Positions 7,243-59,102 of a stretch of 64,000 nucleotides of DNA are shown piece by piece. The position numbers and the translations under genes are program-made. The stretch is from IMG/VR virus record IMGVR_UViG_3300042007_000202, positions 1-64,000 of that record. The stretch is one strand, 5' to 3'. The notes below the pieces were generated by a model. It did not search any database. It was not told where the DNA came from and worked only from the letters and a program-made list of their open reading frames with translations. Source of the stretch: a virus. Each line of letters opens with the position of its first letter. The stretch's first letter is position 1.

Positions 7243-7263
7243 TCCACGCAGATAGGAGCACAG

Positions 7264-7692: not shown

Positions 7693-7706
7693 TGCGGACA
7701 ACCAGC

Positions 7707-7743: not shown

Positions 7744-7780
7744 CCGGCCGGGGGCGCCCGGCTATCAGTGAGGAGGTCTG

Positions 7781-8384: not shown

Positions 8385-8765
8385 ATGCCGCTCTGGACGG
8401 CCGCCCGCCGCGTACTGGCCCGCGCCCGCCGCCGCCCCACCCCCCAGGAACGCCTGCTCCACGGAGAAACCATCCCGCTCCACCTCGGCCCCAACCTGGT
8501 AATCGAAGTCAGCCTCCACCACGGCCTGACCAAACGCTTCACCGAGACGGACGCCATGGACGACGACGAGGGCTACCGGCTGCTCCTGGCCGCCCGCGAA
8601 GCCCTCCACCACCCCCAGCCCCCCCGCCGCCGAGGCGACCTTCCGGCGATGCCCGACCCCCACAACCCCGGTGTGCGTACGATCCCCATCGCGCTCACCC
8701 ACCGGCAGAACAGGTACGTGGGCGACATCCTGGCCGCCTACTTCCGGCTGATCAACGAGGAGTGA
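8385..8765 (+). CDS. Hypothetical protein
   Basis: RBS AAGGAG. Confidence 0.65.
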   Translation: MPLWTAARRVLARARRRPTPQERLLHGETIPLHLGPNLVIEVSLHHGLTKRFTETDAMDDDEGYRLLLAAREALHHPQPPRRRGDLPAMPDPHNPGVRTIPIALTHRQNRYVGDILAAYFRLINEE

Positions 8766-9022
8766 AAACCGTGTCTGAGCCCGCCGCCCGCCCCGAGCCG
8801 GAGAAGGAGCCCTACCGCTTCCCGCCCGAGCTGGAACCCTACCGCCCCCTCCTGGCGTTCCCCGGCCGCGAAGAGGAGCTGATGAACTCCCCGGCCACCC
8901 CCTTCAACAACTGGCCGGTCTACGCCATGCACTGCATCATGGACGGCCAGCTCTCACTGCTGGCCCGCCTGCACGCCGCCGGGCTGCTGCGCCCCGCCCC
9001 CGCCCAGGAGCCCCAGACATGA
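8762..9022 (+). CDS. Hypothetical protein
   Basis: GTGA translational coupling. Confidence 0.65.
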   Translation: MKTVSEPAARPEPEKEPYRFPPELEPYRPLLAFPGREEELMNSPATPFNNWPVYAMHCIMDGQLSLLARLHAAGLLRPAPAQEPQT

Positions 9023-9612
9023 AGCACCTCAGCGAAGGCGAGCCGCAGCAGATCCTCAACGCACTCAAGCGCGCCCTCAACGCCCGGACCGGCTGGGACC
9101 AGCCCCCGGAGTGGGGGAACATCTACCGGACGGACAACGGCCGGATGCGGTGCACCCCGCTCCCGGTCCCCGAATTCATGTGGACCCAGGGCAACGGCGA
9201 CCCGAAGAACCTGCTGGCGGGGTTCCGCGACATCATCAGCGCGCCGCGCGGCGCCAACCAGCGCAACACCGCCGCCACAATCCGGGCCAGCATCCCCGAC
9301 GCCCTGACGGGCCTGTACATCGTGACCGAGGCCTGGGCGCCCCCGCCCATGCAGCAGCACGCCATCTTGAAGGCGCGCGAGCGAGGCGAGCCGACACCGC
9401 GCTTCAAGGACATGGAGGGCCGGGTGGAGACGCGCCAGGCGTGCGCCGTGGACCTGGACATGCGCCTCTACATGGCCACCCAGCCCCGCTCCACCATGGT
9501 CCTCGACGGCCTCATCGACGACCTGACGGCAGACGTGAGGGTGGAGGGGGCGATCCCCGAGCTGCTGTTCGGCATGCTCACCGCGATCGCGAGCGAGAGG
9601 ATCTCACGGTGA
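9019..9612 (+). CDS. Hypothetical protein, paralog of the next gene
   Basis: WDQPPEWG and EAWAPP motifs. Confidence 0.8.
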   Translation: MKHLSEGEPQQILNALKRALNARTGWDQPPEWGNIYRTDNGRMRCTPLPVPEFMWTQGNGDPKNLLAGFRDIISAPRGANQRNTAATIRASIPDALTGLYIVTEAWAPPPMQQHAILKARERGEPTPRFKDMEGRVETRQACAVDLDMRLYMATQPRSTMVLDGLIDDLTADVRVEGAIPELLFGMLTAIASERISR

Positions 9613-10265
9613 ACCCGATGGACCCGATGGACCCGATGGCGCCGGTCCCGGCCGAAGCGATCCTGGTCGTCCTGGACGGCATGCTCAAGGAGTGCGGCGA
9701 CGAGTGGGACCAGCCGCCGGAGTGGGGCTTCCTGTACGCGCCGCCCCTGAGCCTGACCGCCGAGGTGGCCGAGGAAGTGGACGCCGATGTGAGCGCGGTG
9801 CGCGGGGTGATGGCCGCGCCGGTGGCGCTGCCGCTTGAGGCCTGGCGGCAGTTCGGGAGCCCGCTGGAGCTGGTGGGGATGTTCGCCGCCCTCCTCAAGG
9901 AGCCGGACAGCGATCGCGGCGCCGCGATCGTGCGGAAGCTGCGCTCGACGGCACCGGTGATGGGGGCGTGGCTCAGGGTAGAGGCCTGGGCGCCGCCCGT
10001 ACGGCTGGAGGCGGAGTACGCCCGGCGACGCAGGGCCGGTAAGGACATGGACCTGTCGGTGCTGCCTGACAGGCTGGAGTCGCGTGTGGCGTGGGCGGCT
10101 GACGCCTGGGGCCGCAACTTCGTCGGCCGCCGCGTGCGGGACTCCGACGAATTCGAGTGGGACTGGACCGAGCCCGGCCGGGACCGCCTGAGCGCGCATC
10201 ACCCGGCGCTGGTGCACCTGCGGACGATGGTGGACGCGGTGGCCACTCCCCTCCCCACCGTCTGA
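9609..10265 (+). CDS. Hypothetical protein, paralog of the previous gene
   Basis: WDQPPEWG and EAWAPP motifs; ends in a family A site. Confidence 0.8.
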   Translation: MNPMDPMDPMAPVPAEAILVVLDGMLKECGDEWDQPPEWGFLYAPPLSLTAEVAEEVDADVSAVRGVMAAPVALPLEAWRQFGSPLELVGMFAALLKEPDSDRGAAIVRKLRSTAPVMGAWLRVEAWAPPVRLEAEYARRRRAGKDMDLSVLPDRLESRVAWAADAWGRNFVGRRVRDSDEFEWDWTEPGRDRLSAHHPALVHLRTMVDAVATPLPTV

Positions 10266-10279
10266 TCCACGCGGACAGC

Positions 10280-10321
10280 CCGCAGCCCCCGGGCCGGGGA
10301 CCGCCGGACCGGGGGCTGCGG
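10280..10321. terminator. Hairpin between convergent early and lysis genes
   Basis: CCGCAGCCCCCGG / CCGGGGGCTGCGG 13-bp stem. Confidence 0.7.
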
Positions 10322-10333
10322 TGCTGTGAGGGG

Positions 10334-10624
10334 TCAGGAGCCGGTCTCGAAGTACCGTCGCGCCCTCTCCGTGGGCTCTGGAGGATCCCCCACCGGGTTC
10401 CTGGCCCAAAGCCTCAGCTCGTCGTAGGAACGAGCCAGGGCCCGCACCAGAGCCTCACAGTCGCCAGCCTTGCCCGTGCGCACGGCCTCAGTCGCCTCGT
10501 GGGTGGTGCGCTGCGCCGACTGCGTCGCCCGCGCCGCCACCACACCCGCCAGCACCAGGCCCAGAGCCGAGAACGCGGCAGCGCCTATGCTCCCCACCGC
10601 GTCCCACAGCCCGGCCGCAGTCAT
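10334..10624 (-). CDS. Single-TM lysis cassette membrane protein
   Basis: N-terminal hydrophobic helix; last gene of the lysis cassette. Confidence 0.7.
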   Translation of the reverse strand: MTAAGLWDAVGSIGAAAFSALGLVLAGVVAARATQSAQRTTHEATEAVRTGKAGDCEALVRALARSYDELRLWARNPVGDPPEPTERARRYFETGS

Positions 10625-11433
10625 CACGCCCTCCCTTCCCCCACGTCGTAGCGGGGCAGCTCGTACTCCGGCACGCTGGCCGCCCACAGCGCCATGCCGA
10701 CCTGAGACGTCATGAACCACACGGCCACGAAGAAGCCCCGGCCGTAGCCGTCCGCCAGCCACTCCCACGCGTACGAGCCCGCCCACACCACCGGCAGGGC
10801 CGCCGCCGCGAAGAACCCCCAGCGGTCGGGGCCCTCGGGGAGCAGCAGGCACGTGAGCGTGACCAGGCCCGCGAAGAACCAGGCCGCCGCCCACCCGCGC
10901 ATCGGCATCAGGTGCAGCAGCGGCTCCAGGCCGCGCGTGCCGGTCGCGGGCGCGGCGACATACCCGATAGCCCACACGACGCCGCCCACCCCCAGCAGGT
11001 ACAGCGGAGGCGCCCGCCGCGAGCGGTACTTCACGCGGGGCAGCGCGTACTCCGCGACGCTGGCCGCCCACAGGATGAGCAGCGCATGGGAGAGCAGGTA
11101 CCACAGCCCGATGAACATGGCGCGCAGGTAGTGGAACTCCACCGCAGCGTAGAAGTGCCCCAGGGCCCAGGCACCCGGCGGGATGACCGCCGCCACGTAA
11201 CCCCACCGGTCGCGGCCCACCGGCTGGAAGGCCGCCACGATGGCGATGACCCCGGCTCCCACCCAGACGCCTGCCCAAGCCTCCAGCGGCATGACGGCCG
11301 TCACCCCGGCCAGCGCCCGCCGGTCGGAGGCGGGCGCCGTCACGAACCCCGCCCCCCAGCCGATCTTCCCTGCGCCCAGCAGCAGCAGGGGCACCCCCCG
11401 GCGCCCGAGGCGCCGCCGGAGGCCGACGGTCAC
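10624..11433 (-). CDS. Multi-TM membrane protein with internal duplication (lysis cassette)
   Basis: Two homologous halves, each ending LWAASV.EY.LPR. Confidence 0.8.
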   Translation of the reverse strand: MTVGLRRRLGRRGVPLLLLGAGKIGWGAGFVTAPASDRRALAGVTAVMPLEAWAGVWVGAGVIAIVAAFQPVGRDRWGYVAAVIPPGAWALGHFYAAVEFHYLRAMFIGLWYLLSHALLILWAASVAEYALPRVKYRSRRAPPLYLLGVGGVVWAIGYVAAPATGTRGLEPLLHLMPMRGWAAAWFFAGLVTLTCLLLPEGPDRWGFFAAAALPVVWAGSYAWEWLADGYGRGFFVAVWFMTSQVGMALWAASVPEYELPRYDVGEGRA

Positions 11434-46597: not shown

Positions 46598-47010
46598 TAC
46601 TGGTCATCCCCTTCCTTCGTCTGCGCAGATCGCGCGCTGGTGGCCTTCTTCGCGGCCGTCTTCTTGGCCGCTGCCTTGCGGGCGGCCGTCTTCTTGGCGG
46701 CCGGGCGGTGGGCCTTGGGCGCGTCGGGGCCGGGGCCCTCCTCTTCCGGCCCCGACGCGGGCTCGGCAGGCGCCGCCGCGCGCGGCGCGCTGGGCGCGGG
46801 CGCGGGGGGGCTGGGGTCTTCGGGCGGCGGGGCCAGTCCCGCCTGCTCGTAGACGCGGCCGACGGACTCCTCGGGGACGCGCAGCGCCTGGCTGCCCGCG
46901 CCGGACACCGTGGTCACGTACTCGGCCCCGACCACGGCCAGAGCGGCGCGGGCCAGCCGCTCCATGGACACGTCCGCTGTGGGGTAGACCAGCGCGTAGT
47001 TCGTGGTCAT
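46597..47010 (-). CDS. Virion-region protein with histone H1-like tail
   Basis: PAAKKTAARKAAAKKTAAKK. Confidence 0.7.
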   Translation of the reverse strand: MTTNYALVYPTADVSMERLARAALAVVGAEYVTTVSGAGSQALRVPEESVGRVYEQAGLAPPPEDPSPPAPAPSAPRAAAPAEPASGPEEEGPGPDAPKAHRPAAKKTAARKAAAKKTAAKKATSARSAQTKEGDDQ

Positions 47011-47849
47011 CAGCCCTCGCCTCCCACGGTCACCAGCACCGCCGCCCGGTAGCAGTCCGCGTCCAGCGCGTACGTCCGCTCGGCCAGCGCCATCCGTGTG
47101 TTGTCGGAAGTCGTGAAGGTCTCGTTCGCGAAGGCGGCGCCGCGCCAGCCGCGAACCGACCCCGTGGCCACCAGCCAGAAGGTGTCTGCGGCGGGCGGGG
47201 TGACGGGGTCGAAGGGGTTGTCGGGGTAGCCGCCGCCGAACGCGACCCGCGAGCCCAGGCGGGTGCGGAGGACTTCGCCGGTGTCGGCGGCGGGCTGAAG
47301 GAGGTTGAGGCTGTCCCAGTAGGTCTGGGTCCAGCGGGGGGCGTGGAAGGTGGGCGCGCCGCCGTAGTTGAGGGCGGCGTCCTTCTCCAGCACCCCCACG
47401 GCCCGCTTGATGCCGACGGCCGCTGCGGCTTCTCCGAGGGGGTAGCGGGGGTCTTCCAGGCCGAGCACGAGGGCGGCGAACGCCTTCTCCGCCTCACGCT
47501 CCTCGATCAGCCCCAGCCGCTCCAAGGCCATGCCGCGCGGGTCTTCGAACCCGACGGCGTTGCATTCGGCGCGGTTGTAGACGGTGAAGGGGCCGGAGCC
47601 TTCGGCCAGTTCGGGCCCGCTGAACACGGTCTTGTCGTGGGTGGTGCCGGGCCCGGGGTCAAGGGGCGCGGGGCACATGCCCAGGACGTAGCCGCCCTGG
47701 GCGCAGTGGTTGGTGAAGTACTCAACTCCGGCGCGCTGCCACGGGCCCTCGCCGTCGGTGATGCTCGCGACGGAGAACAGGCCGTAGCGGTACGGCTCCA
47801 GGAGGGGAGCGGAGTCCACCCAGGTCTTGCCGGGGGTGGGTGTGGACAC
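47010..47849 (-). CDS. Second capsid protein (pentamer-type, cluster B-like)
   Basis: YGLFSVA...PF.VY...C...T.LGS.V.FG.GY...N....AER.Y; directly follows the capsid gene. Confidence 0.65.
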   Translation of the reverse strand: MSTPTPGKTWVDSAPLLEPYRYGLFSVASITDGEGPWQRAGVEYFTNHCAQGGYVLGMCPAPLDPGPGTTHDKTVFSGPELAEGSGPFTVYNRAECNAVGFEDPRGMALERLGLIEEREAEKAFAALVLGLEDPRYPLGEAAAAVGIKRAVGVLEKDAALNYGGAPTFHAPRWTQTYWDSLNLLQPAADTGEVLRTRLGSRVAFGGGYPDNPFDPVTPPAADTFWLVATGSVRGWRGAAFANETFTTSDNTRMALAERTYALDADCYRAAVLVTVGGEG

Positions 47850-47976: not shown

Positions 47977-49824
47977 TCAGGAGCAGGTGGTGAGCTGGTG
48001 GCTTCCGGAGAGGCCGTTGGCGCAGAGCGGCACCGTGACGACGTAGGACTGGAGGCAGCGGGAGCAGACCTGCCAGCCTTCCTCGGTGAACAGGGCGGTG
48101 TAAACGTTCTGGATCAGCGAGGCGTGGTCGTAGACGCCGTCCAGGTTGATGACGTCGGCCTGGAGCTGGAAGAAGGTGCCCGCCGGGTAGAGCAGGAACT
48201 TGACCTGCTCGGGCCAGGCGGTGGGGATGTCGCCGCCGAAGTCGGTTGCGACGCCCGAGGAGAGGGCGTCCTGCCAGTCGTAGACGTACTGCGGGGAGAC
48301 GCCGACCGCGCGGAGGTAGCCGTCGATCATGGCGTCGGAGACGTTCCAGCGGTTGTCGATGCCGAGCTTCTTGCGCAGGTCGGACTTGAGGATGCCGCGC
48401 ATCCAGTACGGCGCCACCATCTCCAGCGTGGCGTTCTGCGACAGGCGCCAGTGGTAGCGCTGGTACTGGACCTGGAGCTCCAGGATGGACAGCAGGCTCT
48501 CGACCGCGCCGGGGCCGTGGCCGTCAGCGATGGGCGCTGCCGGGTTGGGGTCAGCGACGGCCGGGAAGGTGACGGCCGTGCTCATGGCCTCCATCTTGGC
48601 CAGCTTGCGGGCGTTCATCTTGTGGGCGTGGATGAGCAGCGAGCCCTGGATGAACTGCTCCACGCGCTCGGGCCAGCCGCGCTCCATCAGGATCGGCGTC
48701 CTGATGCACATGCCGCTCACGTCCATGCGGCACTCTTCGAACTCCGGCGGGCAGGGGACCTCGACGCAGGTCTTCTCGACTCCGGCGATGGCCTGGGTCT
48801 CGGTGAGGTAGAAGCCGGTGGAGCCCCAGATGGCGGACCAGTCGAAGTCGGCCGGGTAGCGGATGCCTCCCCGGCGGGCGGTGACGGAGGGCAGGTCGAT
48901 CATGCCCTCTTCGGTCATGCGGATGGGGCAGAGGTCGTAGAGCTGCTCGCTGGGGGCGCACCATCCGGCCGCCGCGACCAGGCTTCCGCCGGGCAGGCGG
49001 GACTCGTCGGTGGCGCGGGCGATGACCTCTTCGGCCTGGCTGTCGTCCTGGATGACGAACTCGCTGGAGACCTCGCGCTTGATGCGGGCGAGCCCGACGC
49101 GGGTGCGTTCGCCGTCGCGGCCGGAGTTGACGTTCCCCGTGATCATGGGGCCCATCCGGTTCTCCCACGCGCGGGCCACGTCGCCCAGGCCGTTCTCCAT
49201 GGTCTGGCCGGTGGAGAACTCGGGGACGTCGGCGGCGGCGATGAGGTTGTACCGGGCGAAGGGCTGGGGGCCGTCGCTCTCCTGCTGGGCGGGGACGGCG
49301 CCACGGCGGGTGCCGAGCGGGACGCGGGCGGTGTTCTTCACGTTGGCTGCCACCAGTTCTCGTGCCTGGGCTCCGGCTCCCTCCTCGGTGTCGTCGTCCG
49401 GGGTCTGCCCCGGCGGCTGGTCCTCGGGGGTGTCCTCGGCGTTGTCGTCTTCGGGGGTCGGCTCCGGGTCGGGGGCCGGTTCGCCGTCGCCTTCGCCGCC
49501 GTCGGTGGCCTCGGCTTCCGGCTGCTGGAGTCCGCGCAGGCGTTCTCCGATCTCGGCTGCGCGGGCGGAGCGCTCGTCCTGCTGGGCGGTGACCACTCCG
49601 ATGCCGTCGGCGATGCGGGCCAGCGTCTCCAGCTTCTGGAGGGTGTCTTCGCTGGCGGGTCCGGCGTCCTCGGGGGACAGCTCGTCGTAGAGCGCCAGGA
49701 CGGCCTGGCTCAGCTCCTGCGGGGTGACCTCGGGGTGCTCGGTGAGGTGCTGCTGGATGACTGCGGGCTGGTCCTCTGCGGGGACGTCTGCGAGCCGGTT
49801 GAGAAGATCGTTGATGAAGCTCAC
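47977..49824 (-). CDS. Major capsid (hexamer-type) protein with N-terminal scaffold-like region
   Basis: SLVAAAGWCAPSE..YD; LP.V..RRGGI; K.C.EVPCP; N.YTALFTEEG. Confidence 0.88.
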   Translation of the reverse strand: MSFINDLLNRLADVPAEDQPAVIQQHLTEHPEVTPQELSQAVLALYDELSPEDAGPASEDTLQKLETLARIADGIGVVTAQQDERSARAAEIGERLRGLQQPEAEATDGGEGDGEPAPDPEPTPEDDNAEDTPEDQPPGQTPDDDTEEGAGAQARELVAANVKNTARVPLGTRRGAVPAQQESDGPQPFARYNLIAAADVPEFSTGQTMENGLGDVARAWENRMGPMITGNVNSGRDGERTRVGLARIKREVSSEFVIQDDSQAEEVIARATDESRLPGGSLVAAAGWCAPSEQLYDLCPIRMTEEGMIDLPSVTARRGGIRYPADFDWSAIWGSTGFYLTETQAIAGVEKTCVEVPCPPEFEECRMDVSGMCIRTPILMERGWPERVEQFIQGSLLIHAHKMNARKLAKMEAMSTAVTFPAVADPNPAAPIADGHGPGAVESLLSILELQVQYQRYHWRLSQNATLEMVAPYWMRGILKSDLRKKLGIDNRWNVSDAMIDGYLRAVGVSPQYVYDWQDALSSGVATDFGGDIPTAWPEQVKFLLYPAGTFFQLQADVINLDGVYDHASLIQNVYTALFTEEGWQVCSRCLQSYVVTVPLCANGLSGSHQLTTCS

Positions 49825-49960
49825 GGCGTGGGCACACCCTTTCGGGTATCTCGTTCCGTGCCCTCGGCCCATCAACCAGCAGAGCGTCCTACGTAGCGTA
49901 GCCGACTGCTCACGCTTCGTGCCCGAGCGGGCGTCCATCCGCGCAGATCAGGTGTCAGAT

Positions 49961-50010
49961 GTGACACGAGATTTGCATGCGCGGTCGCACGGTGATAACT
50001 TGATGTCTCG
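49961..50010 (+). promoter_or_regulatory. Family C promoter
   Basis: GTGACACGAGAT TTGCAT-17-TAACTT GATGTCTC. Confidence 0.8.
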
Positions 50011-50056
50011 CAAGGGGGCTGCGGCCCCCACCACCACCGACCCGGAGGAGCCAGCC

Positions 50057-50479
50057 ATGGCCAGCCCGATCGCCTCATGGAACGTCACCTACACCGACGC
50101 CGAAGGCAAGCGCCACCGCATCACCGGCCTGCCCGACTGGGACACCGCCCGGGAGGAGGCCGCCCGGCTGCGCGCCACCGGCGCCCGATGGGTCAAGACC
50201 CACCCCCACTTCGCCACCCTCCAGGACACCATCGCCTACGCCAGCCGGAACCTGATCCCCAAGGCCGAGGCGGAGCCGCTGTTCATCACCGAACTGGACG
50301 GCCCCACCTTCGCGTCGGCGGAGGAGCTGGACGACTACCGCTGGCGCAACGCCTCCGACGACCGCTCCGACTACGACGCGGAGATGGCGTACGAGCGCCA
50401 CCTGGAGACCAACGACCAGTACCGGTGGGAGCACGAGCAGGACGAACTCCGCGCCGCCGCCTTCGGCTACGGCTTCTGA
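50057..50479 (+). CDS. Hypothetical protein
   Basis: RBS GGAGGAG. Confidence 0.75.
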   Translation: MASPIASWNVTYTDAEGKRHRITGLPDWDTAREEAARLRATGARWVKTHPHFATLQDTIAYASRNLIPKAEAEPLFITELDGPTFASAEELDDYRWRNASDDRSDYDAEMAYERHLETNDQYRWEHEQDELRAAAFGYGF

Positions 50480-50976: not shown

Positions 50977-51477
50977 ATGAGTAACGCAACCTTCCGGCTC
51001 GTCTCCGAGCTGCCCGAGGTGGACAACCCCCTCATCAGCAAGCCGGACCACATCGTCAACCCGTTCGCCGGGCAGGCGCGCAACCCCGGCCACCGCTTCA
51101 CGCTCCTGCGGGGCGAGGCGCGCTGGGCGTGGGCGCACGTGCTGCGCGCCGTGGGCGGCTGGACCGTGATCTCCGCTGGCGTCCTGTCCACGTCGGTTTT
51201 CCCGACCGCCGACGAGGCCGGGGAGTACCTGGTCCGCCAGTTCCTGGGCGCCAACGGCGACGGCTACGACCACCTCTCCCACGAGGCGTACGCCCAGCGG
51301 GGGCGCATCGCCCACATCCGGGACGAGGCCGAGCCCCACACCACGTACTGCGGGGAGGCCGCTACCACCCCGGCGGTGTTCGACCTGGGCGAGCCCAACC
51401 ACGTGGAGCAGCACTGCATCAAGTGCGACCGGTCCTACCGCGCCACGCACTACGGCCGGATGGCGGTGACCCACTGA
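50977..51477 (+). CDS. Hypothetical protein with C-terminal Zn finger
   Basis: H...YCG...CIKC. Confidence 0.7.
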   Translation: MSNATFRLVSELPEVDNPLISKPDHIVNPFAGQARNPGHRFTLLRGEARWAWAHVLRAVGGWTVISAGVLSTSVFPTADEAGEYLVRQFLGANGDGYDHLSHEAYAQRGRIAHIRDEAEPHTTYCGEAATTPAVFDLGEPNHVEQHCIKCDRSYRATHYGRMAVTH

Positions 51478-52121: not shown

Positions 52122-52325
52122 CTAGCGGCCGTACATGGCGTCGCGGGCGAACCACACCAGGGCGCCCGGCCACACGGCCACCATGACTCCCCACAGGGCC
52201 CAGCGCTTGCGCTGGGTAAGGTCCCGGCCGCCGGTCTCCTGGAAACCAGCGGCGAGCCAGCGGGGGGAGGGCCCGAGCGCCGCCATGAGGACGGCGCCGG
52301 TGAGCCAGATCCAGAAGGCGGTCAT
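52122..52325 (-). CDS. Small membrane protein
   Basis: Two hydrophobic segments. Confidence 0.55.
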   Translation of the reverse strand: MTAFWIWLTGAVLMAALGPSPRWLAAGFQETGGRDLTQRKRWALWGVMVAVWPGALVWFARDAMYGR

Positions 52326-52525
52326 GCGATCGGCAGTCCGGTGCGGTGGTCGATCTTCTGGTAGGTGGAGCCCGGGTTGGCCTGCTGTGCCTTCTTGGCG
52401 GCGGGCTCTTCCCAGTAGTCGACGGTGGCCCCGTTGGTGTGGGTGAGGCGCCACACGGCGGCGGTGCCGCCTGCCATCACCGTGGACGCGACCGCGCCCC
52501 GGCGGCCTCCGCAGTTGCAACCCAT
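52322..52525 (-). CDS. Small MGCNCG-start actinophage head-region protein
   Basis: MGCNCGG start; RBS GGAGGAGG. Confidence 0.7.
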   Translation of the reverse strand: MGCNCGGRRGAVASTVMAGGTAAVWRLTHTNGATVDYWEEPAAKKAQQANPGSTYQKIDHRTGLPIA

Positions 52526-52690
52526 CTGTTCCTCCTCCACCGGCCCGCGCCGGACGCTAACGTTGTGTGTGCAACCGGGCACGGAACGAGACGGCGAGAA
52601 GGCGTCCTGTGCGCGGCCTGTCGGGGGGTCCCCCGGGCGTCGCACTGGGCGTCGTGCGAGCAAGCCGGGGGACCACCTGATCCGCGTGGA

Positions 52691-53194
52691 TCAGGCAGGG
52701 TCGAGCCACTTCACCCGCGTTCGCCCCTCGTGGCCGTTGATGGCCATGGCCTCTTCGATGGACGGCCACTCCACGATGGAGCGGACTTCGCCCAGCCACA
52801 TGAGCACCACCCCGCCGTGGGGGAAGACGGCGCCCTCCACGGCGATGCCCGGCCCGCTGGTGCCGGTCTCGTCCTCGCGGCGGTCGTAGATGAACCGGCG
52901 GGGGGCGACCTCGTAGTCCAGCGGCTCACCGATGCTGGTCGCGCACCACCGCAGCTTCCCCCGGCCCCACCAGTCCTCCATCAGGGCGGCCATGTTGGCG
53001 TACCGCTGGCAGGTCTGGCCGGACTGCGACATGACGACGATGCGCCCGTCGGAGAACACCGCGCCGGAGGCGATGGGGACCTGGTTGCGGTCCAGCATCA
53101 CGAAGGTGCGCAGGTTGCCCTCGTAGGTGGCGGGGATGAGGTGCCCCTTGTTGATCTCGGCCGGGATGACCTCATCCTCAGTGTCGACTGGCAT
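52691..53194 (-). CDS. Conserved phage protein with tandem domains (R..D.[ST]G.SG.G..EG..F family)
   Basis: RREDETGTSGPGIAVEGAVFP.G.VV..W...GHEGRTRV.W. Confidence 0.75.
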   Translation of the reverse strand: MPVDTEDEVIPAEINKGHLIPATYEGNLRTFVMLDRNQVPIASGAVFSDGRIVVMSQSGQTCQRYANMAALMEDWWGRGKLRWCATSIGEPLDYEVAPRRFIYDRREDETGTSGPGIAVEGAVFPHGGVVLMWLGEVRSIVEWPSIEEAMAINGHEGRTRVKWLDPA

Positions 53195-53220
53195 GCATTT
53201 CTCCCACGGTTGTGTGCTGG

Positions 53221-53427
53221 TCACTCGTCCGGGAAGCCGCAGGCTTCGAGGAACTTGGAGCGGTTGAAGCCGTAGCCGCCCCGGTACTGGCGGGCGCAGG
53301 CGGAGGCCAACTGGCGGGCCGCCACGCCGAGGACGGCCAGGGCCGCCCCGTTGTCCTCGGCGACCCACCGCTTCGTGTCGGCCACCGCGTTGGCGATGGC
53401 CCAGAAGTCCTTCTTGCTCATGGCCAT
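53221..53427 (-). CDS. Conserved small phage protein
   Basis: MSKKDF.AIA...FN..KFLEAC. Confidence 0.7.
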   Translation of the reverse strand: MAMSKKDFWAIANAVADTKRWVAEDNGAALAVLGVAARQLASACARQYRGGYGFNRSKFLEACGFPDE

Positions 53428-53431: not shown

Positions 53432-56400
53432 TCAGCTCGCGCGCGCGGCGGCCTTCATCGCCTCCCACTTCTGGATGGCCGCACAGGCTTCGGCCTTGCT
53501 GCCGGGGTTGACCTGCTGGATGCCGGGCCAGTTCAGGTCGCCGGAGGCGCACATCTTCTTCGCGGCGTTGACCCCGGTGGCGATGGCCCGGCTGGTGTCC
53601 ATGCCCTTGCTCTTGAGGTGGTCAGCGATCCGCTTGATGTACGGCGGCAGCCCGCCTTGCTGGTCGACCCAGTTCTTCGCCAGGGCGATGTCCTGGTTGC
53701 TCGGGGTGGGCAGGCCGCCGAACCCGGCCAGGGGCATGGGCACTTCGGTCTTGCGCTGGGGCTGGAGGCCGCTGATGCGCTTCCTGGCGAGGGCTGTGCG
53801 GCGGGCCAGGTCGGTGGCGCGGCGCTGGCTGGCGGTCTCCCTGAAGGCGGCCATGCGCTCTTCCAGGGAAGCGGCGCGCTGGCGGCGGGCGGCGCGGCCT
53901 TCCAGCTCATCCGCGACGGCCGCCGCCAGGTGCACCGGCTCCGCCTGGCGCAGCTCGAACGCCTGGAGGCCGCTGGCCTGGGCGGCGGGCTGGCTGTCGG
54001 GGGCGGAGGGCGGGGTGGCCTCTTCCTCCTTGGGCCAGAACCCGGCCGCGACGAGGGAGAAGAACGAGCCGTCGGGGCCGGTCTTCTTCGCGGCGAGGGG
54101 GAAGCCGGGGCTGTTGACCGCCAGCGCGGCGATCAGCTCGGCGCCGCCCCGGACCTCGCGCCAGTCCCCGGAGAACGAGGCGAGGGAGAGGCGGAGGCGG
54201 TCTTCCTGGCTGACGAAGGGGAGCACTGCCCCGGCGACCCAGATGCCGTGGGCGTCTTCACCGACGCGGACCACGGCGGCCTGGGTGCCGGTGTGGTCGT
54301 AGTGGGACATGGCGCCGGTCGCGCTGGCTGTCAGCTTGGCGTGGCCGGTGTTCATGGTGATCAGGCCGCAGCGGACCGTGCCTGTGCTGGTGCGGACGGG
54401 GCGCAGGTTGTAGTAGGCGTAGCCGGAGGCGGAGTGCGGCGGGGGGACGCAGCGGTCCTTGAAGCCGACGTGGCAGGAGCCCCAGGCGGCGAGGTAGCCG
54501 GATACCTGCCCGGTCTCTACATCCACGCGGATGGAGTGGGCGCCGGAGCTGCCGTCGGGCTGCTCGAACCACTCGCCGGGCGGGGTCCAGCCGGGGGCGA
54601 AGGTCTCTGTGGTGGCGGAGGCGGTGATGGCGACGGCCTGGCACGGCTCGCATCCGGCCGGAGGCTCGGACGCCTCGGCCTCCTGCACGATGGACTCGGC
54701 CTCGTCCACCACGGCGGCGGCGGCCTCGGTCTCCGGCGCCCCGGCTGCTGTGATCTTGTCCCACGGGGTGGCCTTGACCTCCTCGCGCAGGGCGCCCATG
54801 TCCGCCAGTCCGGCCGGGTCCCACCACGCGACGACCTCAATACTGTCGCCGTCGGGGTCGTCCGGGTTCAGGACGGTGCGGTCGTCGGGGTCGGGGTTGA
54901 TGCCGACGCCGCTCTCCTCCGGCACCAGCAGCAGGAAGCCCTGGTACACGCCGTTGTCGCTGGTCCAGGTGTCCACGATCTCGCCCTGGCCGCGCATGTC
55001 GCAGCCGGTCTCCTCGCAGAACTCCCGGAAGGCGGCGTCCTCGGCGGTCTCGCCCTCCTCGATGCCGCCGCCCGGCCACTCCCACATGCCGGAGGCGGGG
55101 TCTTCGTCGTCCAGGGCGCGCTGGATCAGCAGCACGCGGCCGGTGTCCTGTGCCTTGACCGCCAGCCCGGCGTGCGTGGGGGTGGATGCCGGGCTGGCGG
55201 GGTCTTCGTCCTCCGCGAGACGCGTGACGCCCATCTGCGCGGATGGGGTGACGTCGTCGGGGGTGGAGGGGCGGGCGCCGGGGGCGTCGCAGGGGGCGGG
55301 CTCCCATCCGGTGCCGTCCTCGGTCGGCGCGACGCACTCCCCCGTCACGACAGGGGTTTCAGGGTCAAGCTCTTCAGCGGCCTGCTCGTCGTCTGCGGCG
55401 ATGTCCTGGGGGACATCCCCCGCCTCGGCCTCCTCGTCATCCTCAGTGGCCGTCTGGGAGTCCTCAGCCGGTACCGCCTCTTCCTCCGGCTCCACGGGTG
55501 CTTCGCCCTGGGCCTGTTCCGGCTCGAACGGGCCGTCGCCGGTGGGGTTCGCCGGGACCGCTTCGGGGTCTTCGCAGTCAGCCGCCATCCACGCGCCGAT
55601 CTCGTCCTGCTTCACGCAGCCCCAGGCCGGGTCGTAGCCCACGATCTCCGAGAACGCCGCAGCGGTGAGGGCCTGGCCGTCCGCGTCCGCGAGAGCGATG
55701 GCCGCGTTGGGGAAGGCCGGGTGGGCCAGGAGGGTGGCGCCCATAATGCGCCAGCCGTCGTAGACGTCGCCGACCATGAGGGAGCGGTCGTTGGGGTCGC
55801 CGTCCGGCACGATGGTGCCGTCTTCCCTGAGGAGCACCTGGTGGGCGCTGGCGTCGTCCACGTCCAGACTGACGAAGCGGACGAAGCCCAGGCCGACCTT
55901 GCGGGCCAGGTCGCGCCCGACCGGGTCCTCCATGTCGAAGCGGCCCTCGCCCCACACCTGGCTCCCTTCGGTCCAGATGCGGTCGATGACGCCGACGCCG
56001 AGTTCGGAGCCGTCGTGGCCCTTGGCCAGGGTGCCCTGGACGAGGAGCGGCAGCGGAAGGGGGCGGGAGCGGACGCCGCCCTCGGGGGTGGCGAGCATTC
56101 GCTGATCCGCGGACCACTCGTCCATGAAGCCCAGGACGCCGCGCCACCGGCCGCTGGGCTCCACGGTCACGGGTCCTGTCTCGGTGACGGTGGGCGTGGT
56201 CATGGACTCCTCCTGTGGTGCTGAGGCGGCGGTGAGGGCGGGGTCCCCGGCGGGGCCGTAGCGGGCGGAGCAGCGGCAGTTGATGACTTCGCCTGCGGGG
56301 CCGAGGGGGTCGCCGGGGAACTGGAGGCGGTGGCCGCCGATCTCGAACGGCTCGGTCAGGGGGCGGACTTGGCCGTCGGCGTTGAGGTGGGTCTCGCGTA

Positions 56401-57010
56401 CGCGCTGGTCGTGGGTGCATTGCCAGCGCTTCTCCCACGGCTGGCCGGTGCGCTCCTGTTCCGCGAGCGCGCCGTGCGCGGCGCCCGCGTTGAGGGCCGT
56501 CATGGTCTCGGTGCGGGTCATGGTCATGATCTGGCCGTCCCACTCCTCCAGCGTCATCAGCGCGGACAGGCGTTCCTTGAGCTGGGCGGGGGATTCGCCG
56601 CTCGGCCGGTGCAGGATGGCGCGCAGCAGCCGGTCAGCGAAGGCGCGCCGGAACCCGGCGAGGCGGTCGCCCAGGCCTTCGCCGTGGCCTTGGTCGTCGT
56701 CGGGGGCGTCGTCGGGGCGGCCGGTGATCCGTCCGAAGCTGCCGCGCCACAGGGCGCGGGTGGGGCCGAGGACGAAGCGGTTCAGGATGCGCCGCCAGGT
56801 CGCCTCTGACGGCACGCCCGGCGGGTGGCCGGGCTCGGGCTCGGCGGCGGCTGTCAGGGCCTCCAGAGAGCCGCCCAGCGGTCCCTTGCGGGCTTCCGCG
56901 AGGAAGGCTTCCACGGCGTCCCGGATGGCGGGGTAGAGCTGGGCTTCGGCCCGGCGGATGTAGGTGTAGTCCTTCATCCGCTCGGACAGCCACGGGTCAG
57001 GCATGGGCAA
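53432..57010 (-). CDS. Head polyprotein: MuF + prohead protease + Nudix + second head domain
   Basis: RTET..A.N, K.W...D.RVR.TH..ADGQ, FPGDP..PA.EVINCRC; GHDG...VSLD...GATL...PAF; Nudix box GGGIEEGETAEDAAFREFCEETG. Confidence 0.88.
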   Translation of the reverse strand: MPMPDPWLSERMKDYTYIRRAEAQLYPAIRDAVEAFLAEARKGPLGGSLEALTAAAEPEPGHPPGVPSEATWRRILNRFVLGPTRALWRGSFGRITGRPDDAPDDDQGHGEGLGDRLAGFRRAFADRLLRAILHRPSGESPAQLKERLSALMTLEEWDGQIMTMTRTETMTALNAGAAHGALAEQERTGQPWEKRWQCTHDQRVRETHLNADGQVRPLTEPFEIGGHRLQFPGDPLGPAGEVINCRCSARYGPAGDPALTAASAPQEESMTTPTVTETGPVTVEPSGRWRGVLGFMDEWSADQRMLATPEGGVRSRPLPLPLLVQGTLAKGHDGSELGVGVIDRIWTEGSQVWGEGRFDMEDPVGRDLARKVGLGFVRFVSLDVDDASAHQVLLREDGTIVPDGDPNDRSLMVGDVYDGWRIMGATLLAHPAFPNAAIALADADGQALTAAAFSEIVGYDPAWGCVKQDEIGAWMAADCEDPEAVPANPTGDGPFEPEQAQGEAPVEPEEEAVPAEDSQTATEDDEEAEAGDVPQDIAADDEQAAEELDPETPVVTGECVAPTEDGTGWEPAPCDAPGARPSTPDDVTPSAQMGVTRLAEDEDPASPASTPTHAGLAVKAQDTGRVLLIQRALDDEDPASGMWEWPGGGIEEGETAEDAAFREFCEETGCDMRGQGEIVDTWTSDNGVYQGFLLLVPEESGVGINPDPDDRTVLNPDDPDGDSIEVVAWWDPAGLADMGALREEVKATPWDKITAAGAPETEAAAAVVDEAESIVQEAEASEPPAGCEPCQAVAITASATTETFAPGWTPPGEWFEQPDGSSGAHSIRVDVETGQVSGYLAAWGSCHVGFKDRCVPPPHSASGYAYYNLRPVRTSTGTVRCGLITMNTGHAKLTASATGAMSHYDHTGTQAAVVRVGEDAHGIWVAGAVLPFVSQEDRLRLSLASFSGDWREVRGGAELIAALAVNSPGFPLAAKKTGPDGSFFSLVAAGFWPKEEEATPPSAPDSQPAAQASGLQAFELRQAEPVHLAAAVADELEGRAARRQRAASLEERMAAFRETASQRRATDLARRTALARKRISGLQPQRKTEVPMPLAGFGGLPTPSNQDIALAKNWVDQQGGLPPYIKRIADHLKSKGMDTSRAIATGVNAAKKMCASGDLNWPGIQQVNPGSKAEACAAIQKWEAMKAAARAS

Positions 57011-59102
57011 GGGAGGACCCCTCTCCGTCGCACTGGAACTGGGCGACGGCCCGCTCCAGGTAGTCGGGGTGGTGTTCCTCGCGGGCGAGTAGGAGCGCGC
57101 GCACGTAGTGGTCCACCGCCTGGTGCAGGCACGGTTCGCCGGGGGTGGACTCGTGGAACTCCGCGTACGCGCCGCGCAGCATCTGGTCGAGCTGGCCGGG
57201 GTCTGCGTGGAGGGTGAGGTGGACGGACTCGGGGGGGAGCTGCTGGAGCTGCGTGCGCTGGTTGCGGGGGGTGGAGCGGATGAGGAACTGTCCGGCCCGG
57301 CTGAGGGCGCGGCGGACGGCCATGTCGAGGCAGCGGGTGCGCCAGTCGCCGCCGTGGCTGAGGGCGGGGCGGGCGCTGGCGGTCATGGCGCGCTCCAGCC
57401 CTTCGCGGGTGACGGGGCGGCTGGCTCCGGCCTGGGGTGCGTTGTTGCGGCCTCCGGCGGCCGGGAGCCCGGCCGGGCGGGCGGCCGGGCGGCCGGGCTG
57501 CTGGGCGGGGGTGGGGCCGGGGGTGCCGGGGTAGCCGCCGATGCGGCTGATGTTGGTGGGGTTGCCCAGGGGGGCCTGTACGCCTTGGGGTGTGGCGGCG
57601 GCGATGGCCTCCGGGGGGAGGGGGATGCCCAGGCGCGGGAGCAGGTAGGGGGCGAGGTTGGCGTTCGTCAGGGCGACGCGTTCCATCAGGCGGCGGGCGC
57701 GCTCCTGCTCGTCGGGGGCGTCCTCTTCGGAGAAGCCCAGTTCGCGCAGGTAGGCGGCGTCGGAGATGACCTGGTTGGCGAAGGCGGTGTCGGCCTCGGG
57801 GGCGCGGTTGGGGCGGAGGGTGAGGTCGCTGGTGTCGTACCAGATGGCGTACTTCTGCCAGCCCTGGATGCGCAGGGCTTTGAGCGCCGGGCGCAGGAGG
57901 TTGGTGGTCAGGGAGTCGCAGATCAAGCCGAGCAGTGGCTCGATGTGCAGCTTGATGGCCGATTCCTCCACTTGCCAGGCCGACCAATGGTTCGCGTCGC
58001 CCAGGCCGGTCAAAACCTCTGGCGGCATGTCCATGCCAGTGGCCACGCGGCGGATCGCGCTCTCGCGCAGTTCCTGGACGTTCTCGTCGAGCTTCGTGCT
58101 GAAGCTGATGTGCTTCAGTTCCTTGCCCTTTTCGGCCGGGCCCCGCACCACCAGCGGCACCACGGCGGACGCGCTGTCGCGGTTCTTCAGGGGGGCGGCC
58201 ATGGCCTCGATGAGGGCGGCCGTGAAGGGGTCCGGGTGGAGGGGGTTGACGCCCTCGGACTGCTCGGGGCTGGGAGTGGTCAGCTCGTCGGGGACGAACA
58301 GGACACCGGCGCCTGCCAGGCGGGACTCCGCGCTGGCGGTGATGTGGGCGGAGAGGTCGACGAGTTCGCGCAGCGGCTGGCGCAGGGCGAGCAGGGGGGA
58401 GTCGGGGTTGTAGCCGACGCGGGGGTGGGGGCGCCAGATGCGCAGGATGGTCGCCTGCTCGGGGTCGATGTCGATGTACTCGTTCGGCATGTCCGGGCTG
58501 ACGATCTTGAGCCCGGCGCCGGTGGACTGGAGCTCGTCCGCCGAGCACACCAGCCAGCGGCGCCCTTCGTCGCCGTCTTCACCGACGACGACGCTGGTGA
58601 CGTCCTGGCCGTATCCGGCGCTCTGGCCGCCGGGGTCGTCGAAGCCGATGAGGTAGCTCTCGCCGGGGATGTTGAGGTGGATGGCGAGGCGGCGCAGCAT
58701 CTCCGCCTGCCCGAGCTGCCCGCCGCCCAGCTCGTCCAGGACGGCGACGGCCTGCTGGGCTTCGAGGTCTACGGCACCGGTGGTCTCGTCGGTGCTGAGG
58801 TCGACGGGGGTGGGCTCGCTGGAGCCGTCGGGATCCACCACGCCGACGTAGAGGCGGGCGCGGGAGCAGGCGTTGGCGATCCAGGTGACGCCGAAGCGGA
58901 GTTCGGTGACGGTGTCGTAGAGGTCCCAGGCGTCGCGCTGCCAGTCCTGCTTGCGGCCGACGACGGTGCGGACCTGGGCCTTGCTGACGAGGGCCGCCGA
59001 CGCCATCACCGTGGTGCCCGCGTTCTGGTAGGTGACGACCCTGCCCGCGCGGTCGCGGCGGATCAGGTGCTTGGGGCGGCGGTGGATATTCCAGAGCGGC
59101 AC
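56997..59102 (-). CDS. Portal protein
   Basis: WQ.DAW..YD.V.ELRF; RIWRPHP...DSP; GMDMPPEVLTG.G.ANHWSAW. Confidence 0.88.
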   Translation of the reverse strand: MPLWNIHRRPKHLIRRDRAGRVVTYQNAGTTVMASAALVSKAQVRTVVGRKQDWQRDAWDLYDTVTELRFGVTWIANACSRARLYVGVVDPDGSSEPTPVDLSTDETTGAVDLEAQQAVAVLDELGGGQLGQAEMLRRLAIHLNIPGESYLIGFDDPGGQSAGYGQDVTSVVVGEDGDEGRRWLVCSADELQSTGAGLKIVSPDMPNEYIDIDPEQATILRIWRPHPRVGYNPDSPLLALRQPLRELVDLSAHITASAESRLAGAGVLFVPDELTTPSPEQSEGVNPLHPDPFTAALIEAMAAPLKNRDSASAVVPLVVRGPAEKGKELKHISFSTKLDENVQELRESAIRRVATGMDMPPEVLTGLGDANHWSAWQVEESAIKLHIEPLLGLICDSLTTNLLRPALKALRIQGWQKYAIWYDTSDLTLRPNRAPEADTAFANQVISDAAYLRELGFSEEDAPDEQERARRLMERVALTNANLAPYLLPRLGIPLPPEAIAAATPQGVQAPLGNPTNISRIGGYPGTPGPTPAQQPGRPAARPAGLPAAGGRNNAPQAGASRPVTREGLERAMTASARPALSHGGDWRTRCLDMAVRRALSRAGQFLIRSTPRNQRTQLQQLPPESVHLTLHADPGQLDQMLRGAYAEFHESTPGEPCLHQAVDHYVRALLLAREEHHPDYLERAVAQFQCDGEGSSLAHA

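What the first reader, a model, noticed from the sequence alone, without database searches (positions are those of the whole stretch)
53432..57010. Head polyprotein with a Nudix hydrolase bracketed by assemblin-like cleavage motifs
Seen: one 1192-aa ORF with MuF, a prohead-protease-like domain, an acidic linker, a perfect Nudix box (about 55004-55073), a second head domain and a C-terminal helical domain. The motif [LI]-[TV]-A-[AS] recurs at the domain boundaries: EALTAAA, PALTAAS, QALTAAA, KITAAG, AITASA, SLVAAG. Similar motifs occur in the capsid precursor (ELVAAN, NLIAAA, SLVAAAGWCAPS) and portal (VMASA, MTASA). Known: HK97-type prohead proteases share the herpes assemblin fold, whose sites are (V/L)-x-A/S, and MuF proteins often carry enzymatic cargo. 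Inference: autoprocessing frees a Nudix enzyme inside the head for injection, possibly to degrade nucleotide alarm signals or cofactors early in infection.
Basis: partly seen in the sequence, partly recalled or inferred. Interest (0 to 1): 0.8.

Follow-up and report, generated by a model that had tools for sequence, protein, structure and literature searches.

The report
Phage head polyprotein carrying Nudix cargo
A 109-kb Streptomyces-type phage encodes one long head protein in which a Nudix enzyme lies between two capsid-protease domains; conserved probable cut sites at the domain borders suggest the enzyme is cut free inside the virus head, an idea already published in outline that can now be tested precisely.

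Summary
A 1192-codon ORF lies on the minus strand at 53432-57010, just downstream of the portal gene.

The motif [LI]-[TV]-A-[AS] occurs 7 times against 0.4 expected. Five copies are conserved in homologues and sit at domain borders. In 75 non-redundant relatives the motif lies just before D3 in 78% and just after D3 in 90%, against 6-8% expected. All three capsid motifs are conserved, including SL[VT]A[AS]GGW in 50 capsid homologues. The portal motifs are at chance level.

The same Nudix clade, when fused to canonical S78 proteases, is flanked by a different motif, [LVIM]-E-x-K-[AST]. This argues that each motif is its own protease's cut site.

Most likely the polyprotein cuts itself in the procapsid and leaves a 36-kDa acidic Nudix fragment in the head. 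Injection and substrate are untested. Nudix fusions to MuF, portal and capsid peptidase were already reported (Iyer et al. 2022). The tandem protease, the cargo slot and the site consensus appear to be new.

Other readers of this scan noted this stretch in overlapping windows.

The parts
53432..57010 (-). Head polyprotein ORF, 1192 codons from the TTG at 57010. The likely start is the ATG at 57004, which overlaps the portal stop (1190 aa).
   Evidence: an identical 1190-aa protein (P0002) is in the database
56264..56602 (-). MuF (SPP1 gp7-like) head morphogenesis domain, aa 137-249
   Evidence: Pfam PF04233, 44 bits against a cut-off of 29.6; PHROG 2468 and 3517
56201..56218 (-). In-frame internal start: AGGAGGAG, a 3-base spacer, then ATG at codon 270. 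It would give a 923-aa product without MuF.
   Evidence: A Shine-Dalgarno site plus ATG is kept before D2 in L002, L013 and L014. Split homologues begin here.
55679..56167 (-). Protease domain D2, aa 282-444, assemblin/HK97 gp4-like fold. His332, Ser381 and Asp383 are invariant.
   Evidence: AF2 pLDDT 88.5; 5jbl Z 10.2 and herpes proteases Z 8-10; invariant residues in 46 sequences
55211..55654 (-). Acidic linker, aa 453-600, with two Cys-pair repeats at aa 465-479 and 559-574
54755..55207 (-). Nudix hydrolase domain, aa 602-752. The Nudix box is aa 648-670, nt 55001-55069.
   Evidence: Pfam PF00293, 57.3 bits against a cut-off of 21.1; the box is conserved in all Nudix-bearing homologues
54065..54598 (-). 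Protease domain D3, aa 805-982, the second assemblin-fold domain. His847, His890 and Ser947 are invariant.
   Evidence: 5jbl Z 7.1; HK97-family proheadases in BFVD, E 1e-4 to 1e-5; PHROG 18402 'head maturation protease'
53768..53938 (-). Long single helix, aa 1025-1081, scaffold-like
   Evidence: AF2 model helix 246-302
53435..53722 (-). Conserved helical C-terminal domain, aa 1097-1192. It is a mobile module found at other positions in relatives.
56846..56860 (-). Junction motif 1, ALTAA (aa 51-55), conserved
   Evidence: also present in MelsMeow gp9
56222..56239 (-). Junction motif 2, ALTAAS (aa 258-263), at the end of MuF, conserved
55655..55672 (-). Junction motif 3, ALTAAA (aa 447-452), at the end of D2, conserved
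54740..54757 (-). KITAAG (aa 752-757), directly after the Nudix domain, NOT conserved
54614..54631 (-). Junction motif 5, AITASA (aa 794-799), just before D3 and preceded by C-E-P-C. Conserved, in a segment with pLDDT below 50.
54041..54058 (-). Junction motif 6, SLVAAG (aa 985-990), just after D3. It is the best-conserved site of the family and lies in a segment with pLDDT below 50.
47977..49938 (-). Major capsid protein precursor with a long N-terminal extension. It has conserved motifs at aa 195-198 (nt 49345-49356), aa 232-235 (nt 49234-49245) and aa 320-323 (nt 48970-48981, SLVAAAGW).
   Evidence: PHROG 777
56997..59102 (-). Portal protein gene, directly upstream. Its stop overlaps the polyprotein ATG.
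   Evidence: PHROG 776, E 1e-157; Pfam PF04860

Best explanation
This is the head-assembly polyprotein of a 109-kb actinobacterial phage, probably of Streptomyces. It is probably made in two forms: full length, with MuF at the N-terminus, and a 923-aa form from an internal start at codon 270. Both forms carry two HK97/assemblin-fold serine protease domains, D2 and D3. Between them lies a variable slot, which here holds an acidic linker and a Nudix hydrolase. After D3 come a long helix and a helical C-terminal domain that probably take the protein into the procapsid.

Inside the procapsid the protease domains would cut at [AS]-L-[VT]-A-[AS]-[AG] sites, probably after the invariant Ala. These sites lie at every domain border and at three positions in the N-terminal extension of the capsid precursor. 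Cutting would separate MuF, D2, a 36-kDa acidic Nudix fragment (aa 451-797), D3 and the scaffold-like tail, and would trim the capsid protein. The Nudix fragment is too large to leave the shell. It would stay in the head and enter the next host with the DNA, where it would hydrolyse a nucleotide-type substrate early in infection.

Shown here: the domain identities, the invariant His and Ser, the intact Nudix box, the enrichment and positional conservation of the motif, and the variable slot. Inferred: cleavage, the scissile bond, packaging, injection and substrate.
For: Domains:
- Pfam finds MuF and NUDIX.
- D2 has the fold of T4 gp21 (Z 10.2) and of herpes assemblins (Z 8-10).
- D3 matches the same families: the 16 best PDB rows are all gp21 or herpes proteases (Z 7.1 to 4.9), and HK97 proheadases match in BFVD.
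- His332 and Ser381 are invariant in 46 sequences. His890 and Ser947 are invariant in 54. The His-Ser spacing is 49 and 57 residues, and S-x-D follows the Ser in both domains.

Motif:
- 7 observed against 0.38 expected, and 5 of the 7 are conserved.
- In 75 non-redundant relatives it lies before D3 in 57 of 73, after D3 in 66 of 73 and after D2 in 29 of 68. Shuffling each zone on its own predicts 4.5, 5.9 and 3.2.
- The sites before and after D3 fall in model segments with pLDDT below 50, right next to the fold.
- The capsid sites are conserved in 50 homologues.
- Phages that have D3 but no D2 still carry the motif.

Cross-check: the same Nudix clade fused to Pfam S78 proteases is flanked by [LVIM]-E-x-K-[AST]. 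That motif occurs at 3.1 per 1000 aa in those proteins against 0.07 per 1000 in the other fetched proteins.

Cargo slot: the D2-D3 gap runs from about 20 aa to several hundred. It is empty, holds Nudix, or holds unknown inserts.

Nudix clade: of its 60 nearest cluster representatives, 15 carry a portal domain, 7 MuF, 7 S78, 3 a 2H phosphoesterase, 2 an ADP-ribosyltransferase and 1 Acb1.

Internal start.

Gene position: the ORF lies between the portal and capsid genes.

Published parallels: Iyer et al. 2022 (PMC9503650); the Rosebush capsid protein is predicted to be cleaved, at an unknown site.
Against: - There is no experimental evidence of cleavage, packaging or injection for this protein or any relative found here.
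- D2 and D3 do not match Pfam Peptidase_S78. They also show no significant profile similarity to each other or to S78 domains.
- The catalytic residues are assigned from invariance, order and spacing, not from a residue-level superposition.
- D3's best Z of 7.1 is in the range where the tool warns of chance matches.
- The site immediately after the Nudix domain is not conserved, so the released fragment would carry about 150 aa of acidic linker.
- An acidic protein (pI 4.05) is an odd companion for packed DNA.
- The family sequences are related, so the motif counts are not independent events.
- Matches to solved Nudix enzymes cover little more than the Nudix box, so the substrate cannot be assigned.
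Confidence: 0.55

Rival explanations
1. The motifs are cut as proposed, but the Nudix fragment is not an injected effector. Either it acts in the producing cell or procapsid, or it is degraded and expelled like scaffold and delta-domain fragments.
For: The fragment is very acidic, with pI 4.05, 86 Asp+Glu and 12 Lys+Arg, unlike the basic internal proteins of T4 (my recollection). After cleavage it is no longer attached to MuF, the part known from SPP1 gp7 to associate with the portal (my recollection). Homologues without Nudix keep the same acidic Cys-motif linker, so the linker has a role of its own.
Against: A folded fragment of about 36 kDa should not pass through capsid pores. The Nudix clade occurs almost only inside head proteins (portal, MuF, protease) and alongside recognised counter-defence domains. 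That pattern is hard to explain if it only worked in the producing cell, where a free enzyme would do.
Confidence: 0.2
2. The L-[VT]-A-[AS] motifs are not cleavage sites. They are structural or docking elements, for example strands that occupy the protease groove or join subunits, and the polyprotein stays whole.
For: No cleavage data exist. The post-D3 motif is almost invariant (L in 70 of 79, V in 70 of 79), which would also fit a structural role. The capsid motif SL[VT]A[AS]GGWCAPS lies in a well-conserved stretch that could be part of the mature fold.
Against: The motifs lie in segments with pLDDT below 50, outside the folded cores, and in linkers that otherwise vary. The pattern hydrophobic-x-Ala followed by Ala or Ser matches the herpes assemblin site (V/L)-x-A/S quoted in the finding, which is established knowledge. 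A different motif takes the same positions in fusions with a different protease family. The Rosebush-type capsid protein, at 71 kDa, is expected to be processed.
Confidence: 0.12
3. Only D3 is the working maturation protease. D2 is an accessory or regulatory paralogue, for example a cis-acting self-releasing domain or a pseudo-dimer partner, and not a second general protease.
For: D3 is universal in the family and occurs without D2 in some phages (L018, L056, L004, L080), which still carry the motif. Curated phage annotations place 'capsid maturation protease' on D3-type genes. The motif follows D2 less often (43%) than it follows D3 (90%).
Against: His332, Ser381 and Asp383 of D2 are invariant in 46 diverse sequences. 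The D2 model matches T4 gp21 better than D3 does, Z 10.2 against 7.1.
Confidence: 0.3

Closest known systems
'Capsid maturation protease and MuF-like fusion protein' of cluster B mycobacteriophages (e.g. MelsMeow gp9) and relatives in Gordonia and Microbacterium phages
   Same: The gene lies between the portal gene and a long 'major capsid hexamer protein'. It has MuF, D2 and D3 in the same order, and the same junction and capsid motifs: LTAAS at aa 42, ALVAS after D3, and GGSLIAAGGW in the capsid protein.
   Different: It has no Nudix, no long acidic Cys-motif linker and no detectable C-terminal domain. D2 and D3 are adjacent. The published annotation treats the protease as one unit.
Pseudanabaena phage Pam4 gp13 ('capsid maturation protease', 1013 aa)
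   Same: A cultured phage whose gene after the portal carries MuF, the same Nudix clade (49% identity), D2 and D3, with the same motifs (SITAAA before Nudix, ALTASA between D2 and D3, ALVASG after D3).
   Different: The Nudix domain sits between MuF and D2, not between D2 and D3. The host is a cyanobacterium and the genome is 48 kb.
Nudix domains fused to MuF, portal or the capsid-processing serine peptidase (Iyer, Burroughs, Aravind and co-workers 2022, Viruses 14:1977)
   Same: They use the same reasoning: fusion to head proteins implies packaging and injection, to counter NAD/ADPr-derived or other nucleotide signals.
   Different: That paper assigns such fusions to a T4 NudE-like clade. Here tblastn of this Nudix domain against 50,697 phage records found only 7 records, and none was T4. 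In the passages read, the paper does not describe a tandem protease, a cargo slot or a site consensus.
Herpesvirus protease-scaffold polyprotein (assemblin, UL26-type) with release and maturation sites (V/L)-x-A/S
   Same: Assemblin fold. The protease is followed by a helical scaffold-like tail, with a hydrophobic-x-Ala then Ala/Ser motif at the end of the protease domain.
   Different: That polyprotein has one protease domain, no MuF and no enzymatic cargo. No sequence similarity is detectable. The resemblance is in fold and logic only.
T4 Alt and internal proteins processed by gp21; phiKZ/SPN3US ejection proteins processed by the prohead protease
   Same: Enzymes or effectors are packaged in the head, trimmed by an assemblin-fold protease at a family-specific short motif, and injected.
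   Different: Those cargoes are separate gene products carrying targeting peptides. Here the cargo is built into the protease polyprotein itself.
MuF polymorphic toxins and polyvalent proteins (Iyer et al. 2017, J Bacteriol 199:e00245-17)
   Same: A MuF N-terminal module is fused to interchangeable enzymatic domains (2H, ART, others) that are predicted to be delivered with the DNA.
   Different: In those proteins the cargo is usually C-terminal to MuF. Here it is internal, between two protease domains, and is followed by scaffold-like parts.

Membership tests
Nudix hydrolase superfamily (Pfam PF00293) | Nudix box G-x5-E-x7-R-E-U-x-E-E-x-G-U | tested here: met
   aa 648-670 match the full pattern. 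The box residues are invariant in 60 clade representatives.
Nudix hydrolase superfamily (Pfam PF00293) | Profile score above the curated threshold | tested here: met
   57.3 bits against a gathering score of 21.1
Nudix hydrolase superfamily (Pfam PF00293) | Pyrophosphohydrolase activity on a nucleoside diphosphate-X substrate | not testable with these tools
   Matches to solved enzymes cover mainly the box, so no substrate class can be assigned.
T4 NudE-like phage Nudix clade (as named by Iyer et al. 2022) | Detectable sequence relationship to T4 NudE | tested here: inconclusive
   tblastn against 50,697 phage records at E <= 1e-3 found 7 records, none of them T4-like. A profile comparison with NudE itself was not run.
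MuF / SPP1 gp7 head morphogenesis family (Pfam PF04233) | Profile score above threshold, and a gene directly after the portal gene | tested here: met
   44 bits against 29.6. The portal (PHROG 776) is directly upstream with overlapping stop and start.
Assemblin-fold prohead serine proteases (T4 gp21, HK97 gp4, herpes assemblin) | Shared fold: D2 | tested here: met
   5jbl Z 10.2, rmsd 2.6 A, 125 residues aligned. Herpes proteases give Z 8-10 and fill the top 38 rows.
Assemblin-fold prohead serine proteases (T4 gp21, HK97 gp4, herpes assemblin) | Shared fold: D3 | tested here: met
   5jbl Z 7.1, and the 16 best rows are all from this family. Foldseek probability is 0.92. HK97-family proheadases match in BFVD at E 1e-4 to 1e-5. 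Z is below 8, so the case rests on agreement across the three searches.
Assemblin-fold prohead serine proteases (T4 gp21, HK97 gp4, herpes assemblin) | Catalytic His and Ser conserved and placed as in the family | tested here: inconclusive
   His332/Ser381 and His890/Ser947 are invariant, in the right order and spacing.
Pfam Peptidase_S78 (PF04586, HK97 gp4 family) by sequence | Profile match to PF04586 | tested here: not met
   No PF04586 hit at E <= 1. The fold is the same, but these domains are not members of that sequence family.
Packaged, protease-processed, injected head proteins (T4 Alt type) | Presence in virions, cleavage by the prohead protease, entry into the host | not testable with these tools
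   Only comparative evidence for cleavage sites is available.

The most novel reading that the evidence does not exclude
The 'capsid maturation protease' of the cluster-B-like actinophage head module is really a tandem of two active assemblin-fold proteases that form a cut-out cargo cassette. This module occurs in more than 800 cultured phages. Any enzyme inserted between the two domains, or between MuF and D2, would be loaded into the procapsid at protease copy number. It would then be excised at [AS]-L-[VT]-A|[AS]-[AG] sites and injected. On this reading the Nudix clade found here is a dedicated injected enzyme that destroys a host nucleotide signal. The same consensus would also give the so far unpredictable maturation site of the long capsid precursors, SL[VT]A|[AS]GGW.
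Probability: 0.3. Interest if true: 0.75.

Novelty: new variant of a known kind. Interest (0 to 1): 0.55.

Why it matters
Phages that carry enzymes in their heads can act on the host before any phage gene is expressed. Packaged Nudix, 2H, Acb1-like and ART domains are therefore candidates for first-strike counter-defence.

This locus and its relatives give three concrete, cheap tests:
- A short consensus predicts every processing site in the polyprotein. It also predicts the mature N-terminus of a capsid family for which a published structural survey states the cleavage site cannot be predicted.
- The tandem-protease arrangement can be dissected with two point mutants.
- The insertion slot could be used to load foreign proteins into actinophage heads.

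Cultured relatives exist for these tests: cluster B mycobacteriophages, Pam4 and Gilgamesh.

Tried and rejected
- Plus-strand reading of the given coordinates: full of stops. The ORF is on the minus strand.
- Portal motifs as sites: at chance level.
- KITAAG as the C-terminal bracket of the Nudix domain: not conserved.
- D2 and D3 as recognisable sequence paralogues, or as Pfam S78 members: hhalign probabilities of 1% or less and no Pfam hit. Only fold evidence links them.
- A nested scaffold gene inside the 3' part of the ORF, as in lambda C/Nu3 or herpes UL26.5: the only strong in-frame Shine-Dalgarno site plus ATG is at codon 270.
- The second capsid-like gene (47010-47849) as a paralogue that would mark the start of the mature capsid fold: no similarity.
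- A solved structure of a capsid homologue that would show the mature N-terminus: none by sequence.
- Virion mass spectrometry for Pam4 gp13 in the paper's supplements: only the annotation table was found.
- Substrate assignment from solved Nudix enzymes: matches cover only the box region.
- ESM Atlas for the C-terminal domain: only unnamed viral clusters, all below the reliable score.
- Low-complexity or Ala-rich bias as the cause of the motif: rejected by whole-protein shuffles and by shuffles within each zone.

Full report
WHAT IS THERE

The window is the first 64 kb of a 108,671-base virus record judged 99% complete. GC content is about 71%. The closest cellular homologues are in Streptomyces. 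The coordinates of the finding hold a single open frame, but on the minus strand: 53432-57010, 1192 codons from a TTG. The likely start is the ATG two codons later, at 57004. It overlaps the stop of the upstream portal gene and gives the 1190-aa protein already on record (P0002). GC3 is 0.91, as in the other genes of the record. The neighbours on the same strand are the portal (PHROG 776), a 653-aa major capsid protein (PHROG 777) and a major tail protein. This head module is shared with cluster B mycobacteriophages and with many Gordonia and Microbacterium phages.

DOMAINS

Pfam finds MuF (aa 137-249) and NUDIX (aa 619-735), both above their curated thresholds. The Nudix box at aa 648-670 (nt 55001-55069) matches the full consensus.

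I folded two parts, using alignments of 46 and 54 homologues.

- Residues 275-470 (D2) gave a confident model, pLDDT 88.5. Its best structural matches are the T4 capsid assembly protease gp21 (Z 10.2, rmsd 2.6 A, 125 residues) and the herpesvirus proteases (Z 8-10). These fill the first 38 rows.
- Residues 780-1192 gave a second beta-rich domain (D3, aa 805-982, pLDDT above 90), a 57-residue single helix and a helical C-terminal domain.
- D3 also matches gp21 (Z 7.1) and the herpes proteases. The 16 best rows are all from this family. In the viral library it matches HK97-family prohead proteases at E 1e-4 to 1e-5.

His332, Ser381 and Asp383 of D2 are invariant in 46 sequences. His847, His890 and Ser947 of D3 are invariant in 54. 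Several shared features suggest that each domain keeps a His/Ser pair like HK97 gp4 and T4 gp21:
- the order His then Ser, with spacings of 49 and 57 residues;
- an S-x-D after the serine in both domains;
- a shared closing P-[AG]-F-P.

I could not superpose residues, so this assignment is an inference. Neither domain matches Pfam Peptidase_S78. The two domains are not detectably similar to each other by profile.

FAMILY ARCHITECTURE

Domain maps of 96 database homologues and 80 viral loci show that D2 followed by D3 is the core unit.
- The gap between D2 and D3 is about 20 residues in the simplest forms (416-473 aa proteins) and several hundred in others.
- The gap holds nothing recognisable, a Nudix domain, or unknown inserts.
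- 2H phosphoesterases sit between MuF and D2 in some relatives.
- MuF is fused in front in many. Split forms begin exactly where this ORF has an in-frame AGGAGGAG-3 nt-ATG at codon 270.
- A comparable Shine-Dalgarno site plus ATG is kept before D2 in distant fused forms. Two products are therefore likely.
- D3 occurs without D2 in a few phages.
- Cluster B1 phage MelsMeow gp9 is MuF-D2-D3. Cyanophage Pam4 gp13 is MuF-Nudix-D2-D3.

THE MOTIF

[LI][TV]A[AS] occurs seven times in the polyprotein against 0.38 expected from composition; none of 5000 shuffles reached seven. Other proteins of the window have 0.34 per 1000 aa.

In an alignment of 18 homologues, five sites are conserved inside linkers that otherwise vary: aa 52, 259, 448, 795 and 986. 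KITAAG, directly after the Nudix domain, is not conserved. The sites before and after D3 coincide with the only short segments of pLDDT below 50 that flank the D3 fold.

Among 75 non-redundant family members:

| Position of motif | Observed | Expected (zone shuffled on its own) |
|---|---|---|
| within about 38 residues before D3 | 57 of 73 | 4.5 |
| within about 45 residues after D3 | 66 of 73 | 5.9 |
| after D2 | 29 of 68 | 3.2 |

The consensus is [AS]-L-[VT]-A-[AS]-[AG]. The sequences are related, so these counts are not independent events. The surrounding linkers are nevertheless largely unalignable.

The third, S-L-[VT]-A-[AS]-G-G-[WFH], is nearly universal. The portal motifs are not above chance.

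AN INDEPENDENT CROSS-CHECK

The Nudix domain belongs to a clade with 287 cluster representatives at E <= 1e-30. Almost all are embedded in long proteins (median 793 aa). Of the 60 nearest, 15 carry a portal domain, 7 MuF, 7 Pfam S78 protease, 3 a 2H phosphoesterase, 2 an ADP-ribosyltransferase and 1 Acb1.

In the 15 S78-Nudix fusions the L-[VT]-A-[AS] motif is replaced by another recurring motif, [LVIM]-E-x-K-[AST]. It occurs at 3.1 per 1000 aa against 0.07 in the other fetched proteins, typically just before and just after the Nudix domain. The same cargo is thus flanked by a different short motif when the protease family differs. That is what cognate cleavage sites predict, and it is hard to explain otherwise.

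MECHANISM PROPOSED

1. The protein enters the procapsid through its scaffold-like helix and C-terminal domain. The full-length form also enters through MuF at the portal. (Inference.)
2. The protease domains then cut at the consensus sites, probably after the invariant Ala. This is by analogy with the herpes site (V/L)-x-A/S. (Inference.)
3. Predicted products are a 52-aa N-peptide, MuF (22.7 kDa), D2 (20.1 kDa), the acidic linker plus Nudix (36.2 kDa, pI 4.05), D3 (20.0 kDa) and a basic 21.8-kDa tail.
4. The capsid precursor would lose up to about 320 N-terminal residues.
5. The Nudix fragment would remain in the head and enter the next host. (Inference.)

The substrate is open. Solved relatives match little beyond the box.

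WHAT IS KNOWN ALREADY

- Iyer and co-workers (2022) state that phage Nudix domains are fused to MuF, portal and the capsid-processing serine peptidase, and infer packaging and injection.
- The same group described MuF fusions to many effectors in 2017.
- MuF-protease fusions are a standard annotation in actinophages.
- For the related Rosebush capsid protein, cleavage is expected but the site is unknown. A structural survey says delta-domain cleavage sites of actinophage capsids cannot be predicted.

I did not find the following described in the papers searched:
- the tandem of two protease-fold domains;
- the cargo slot between them;
- the site consensus shared by polyprotein and capsid;
- the protease-specific change of flanking motif around one Nudix clade.

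VERDICT

The cleavage-site reading has good comparative support. Injection and the role against nucleotide signals remain untested and are not new as ideas. This is a new variant of a known kind, of moderate interest, with sharp tests available in cultured phages.

Noticed in passing
window 55289-55336 and 55574-55618 (aa 559-574, 465-479); also 54641-54652 (aa 787-790): The acidic linker holds two copies of a Cys-pair repeat, C-V-x5-7-W-x4-C followed by G-A-V-P-A-N-x2-G-x-G-P. The repeats are kept even in homologues that lack Nudix. A C-x-P-C lies just before the pre-D3 site, and C-x2-C before that site recurs in distant relatives. Metal binding or a disulfide is possible; the function is unknown.
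   Followed up: partly
proteins P0064, P0066, P0188, P0190, P0111 and others (not in the window): Fusions of a Pfam S78 protease with the same Nudix clade carry a recurring [LVIM]-E-x-K-[AST] motif around the Nudix domain, about 45 times enriched. It is probably the cleavage motif of that protease lineage.
   Followed up: partly
window 49724-50479 (+) and 50977-51477 (+): Plus-strand ORFs with GC3 of 0.87-0.96 lie between the polyprotein and the capsid gene, opposite in direction to the head operon. There are no family matches apart from a weak chance-level Pfam hit. Another reader of this scan noted them as an antisense moron.
   Followed up: partly
window 52691-53368 (-) and 52322-52663 (-): These are small genes just downstream of the polyprotein. 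The last 72 residues of the first match PHROG 7499, of unknown function. The second has a sub-threshold DUF7196 match. Another reader suggested a nucleotide-sponge-like protein for the first. I did not test that.
   Followed up: no
whole record; plasmid hits; contig lengths: Close homologues of the polyprotein sit on contigs of about 99-111 kb, and Nudix-bearing relatives sit on Streptomyces plasmids of 99-130 kb. This lineage may include plasmid-like prophages (phage-plasmids).
   Followed up: no
window 47010-47849 (-): A 279-aa gene (PHROG 779) sits after the capsid gene, in the position of the 'major capsid pentamer protein' of cluster B mycobacteriophages. It has no detectable similarity to the 653-aa capsid protein.
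   Followed up: partly
L059 (viral contig), ORF 6791-10654: A relative has its MuF domain interrupted by an intein (Pfam Intein_splicing, aa 282-741), ahead of D2 and D3.
   Followed up: no
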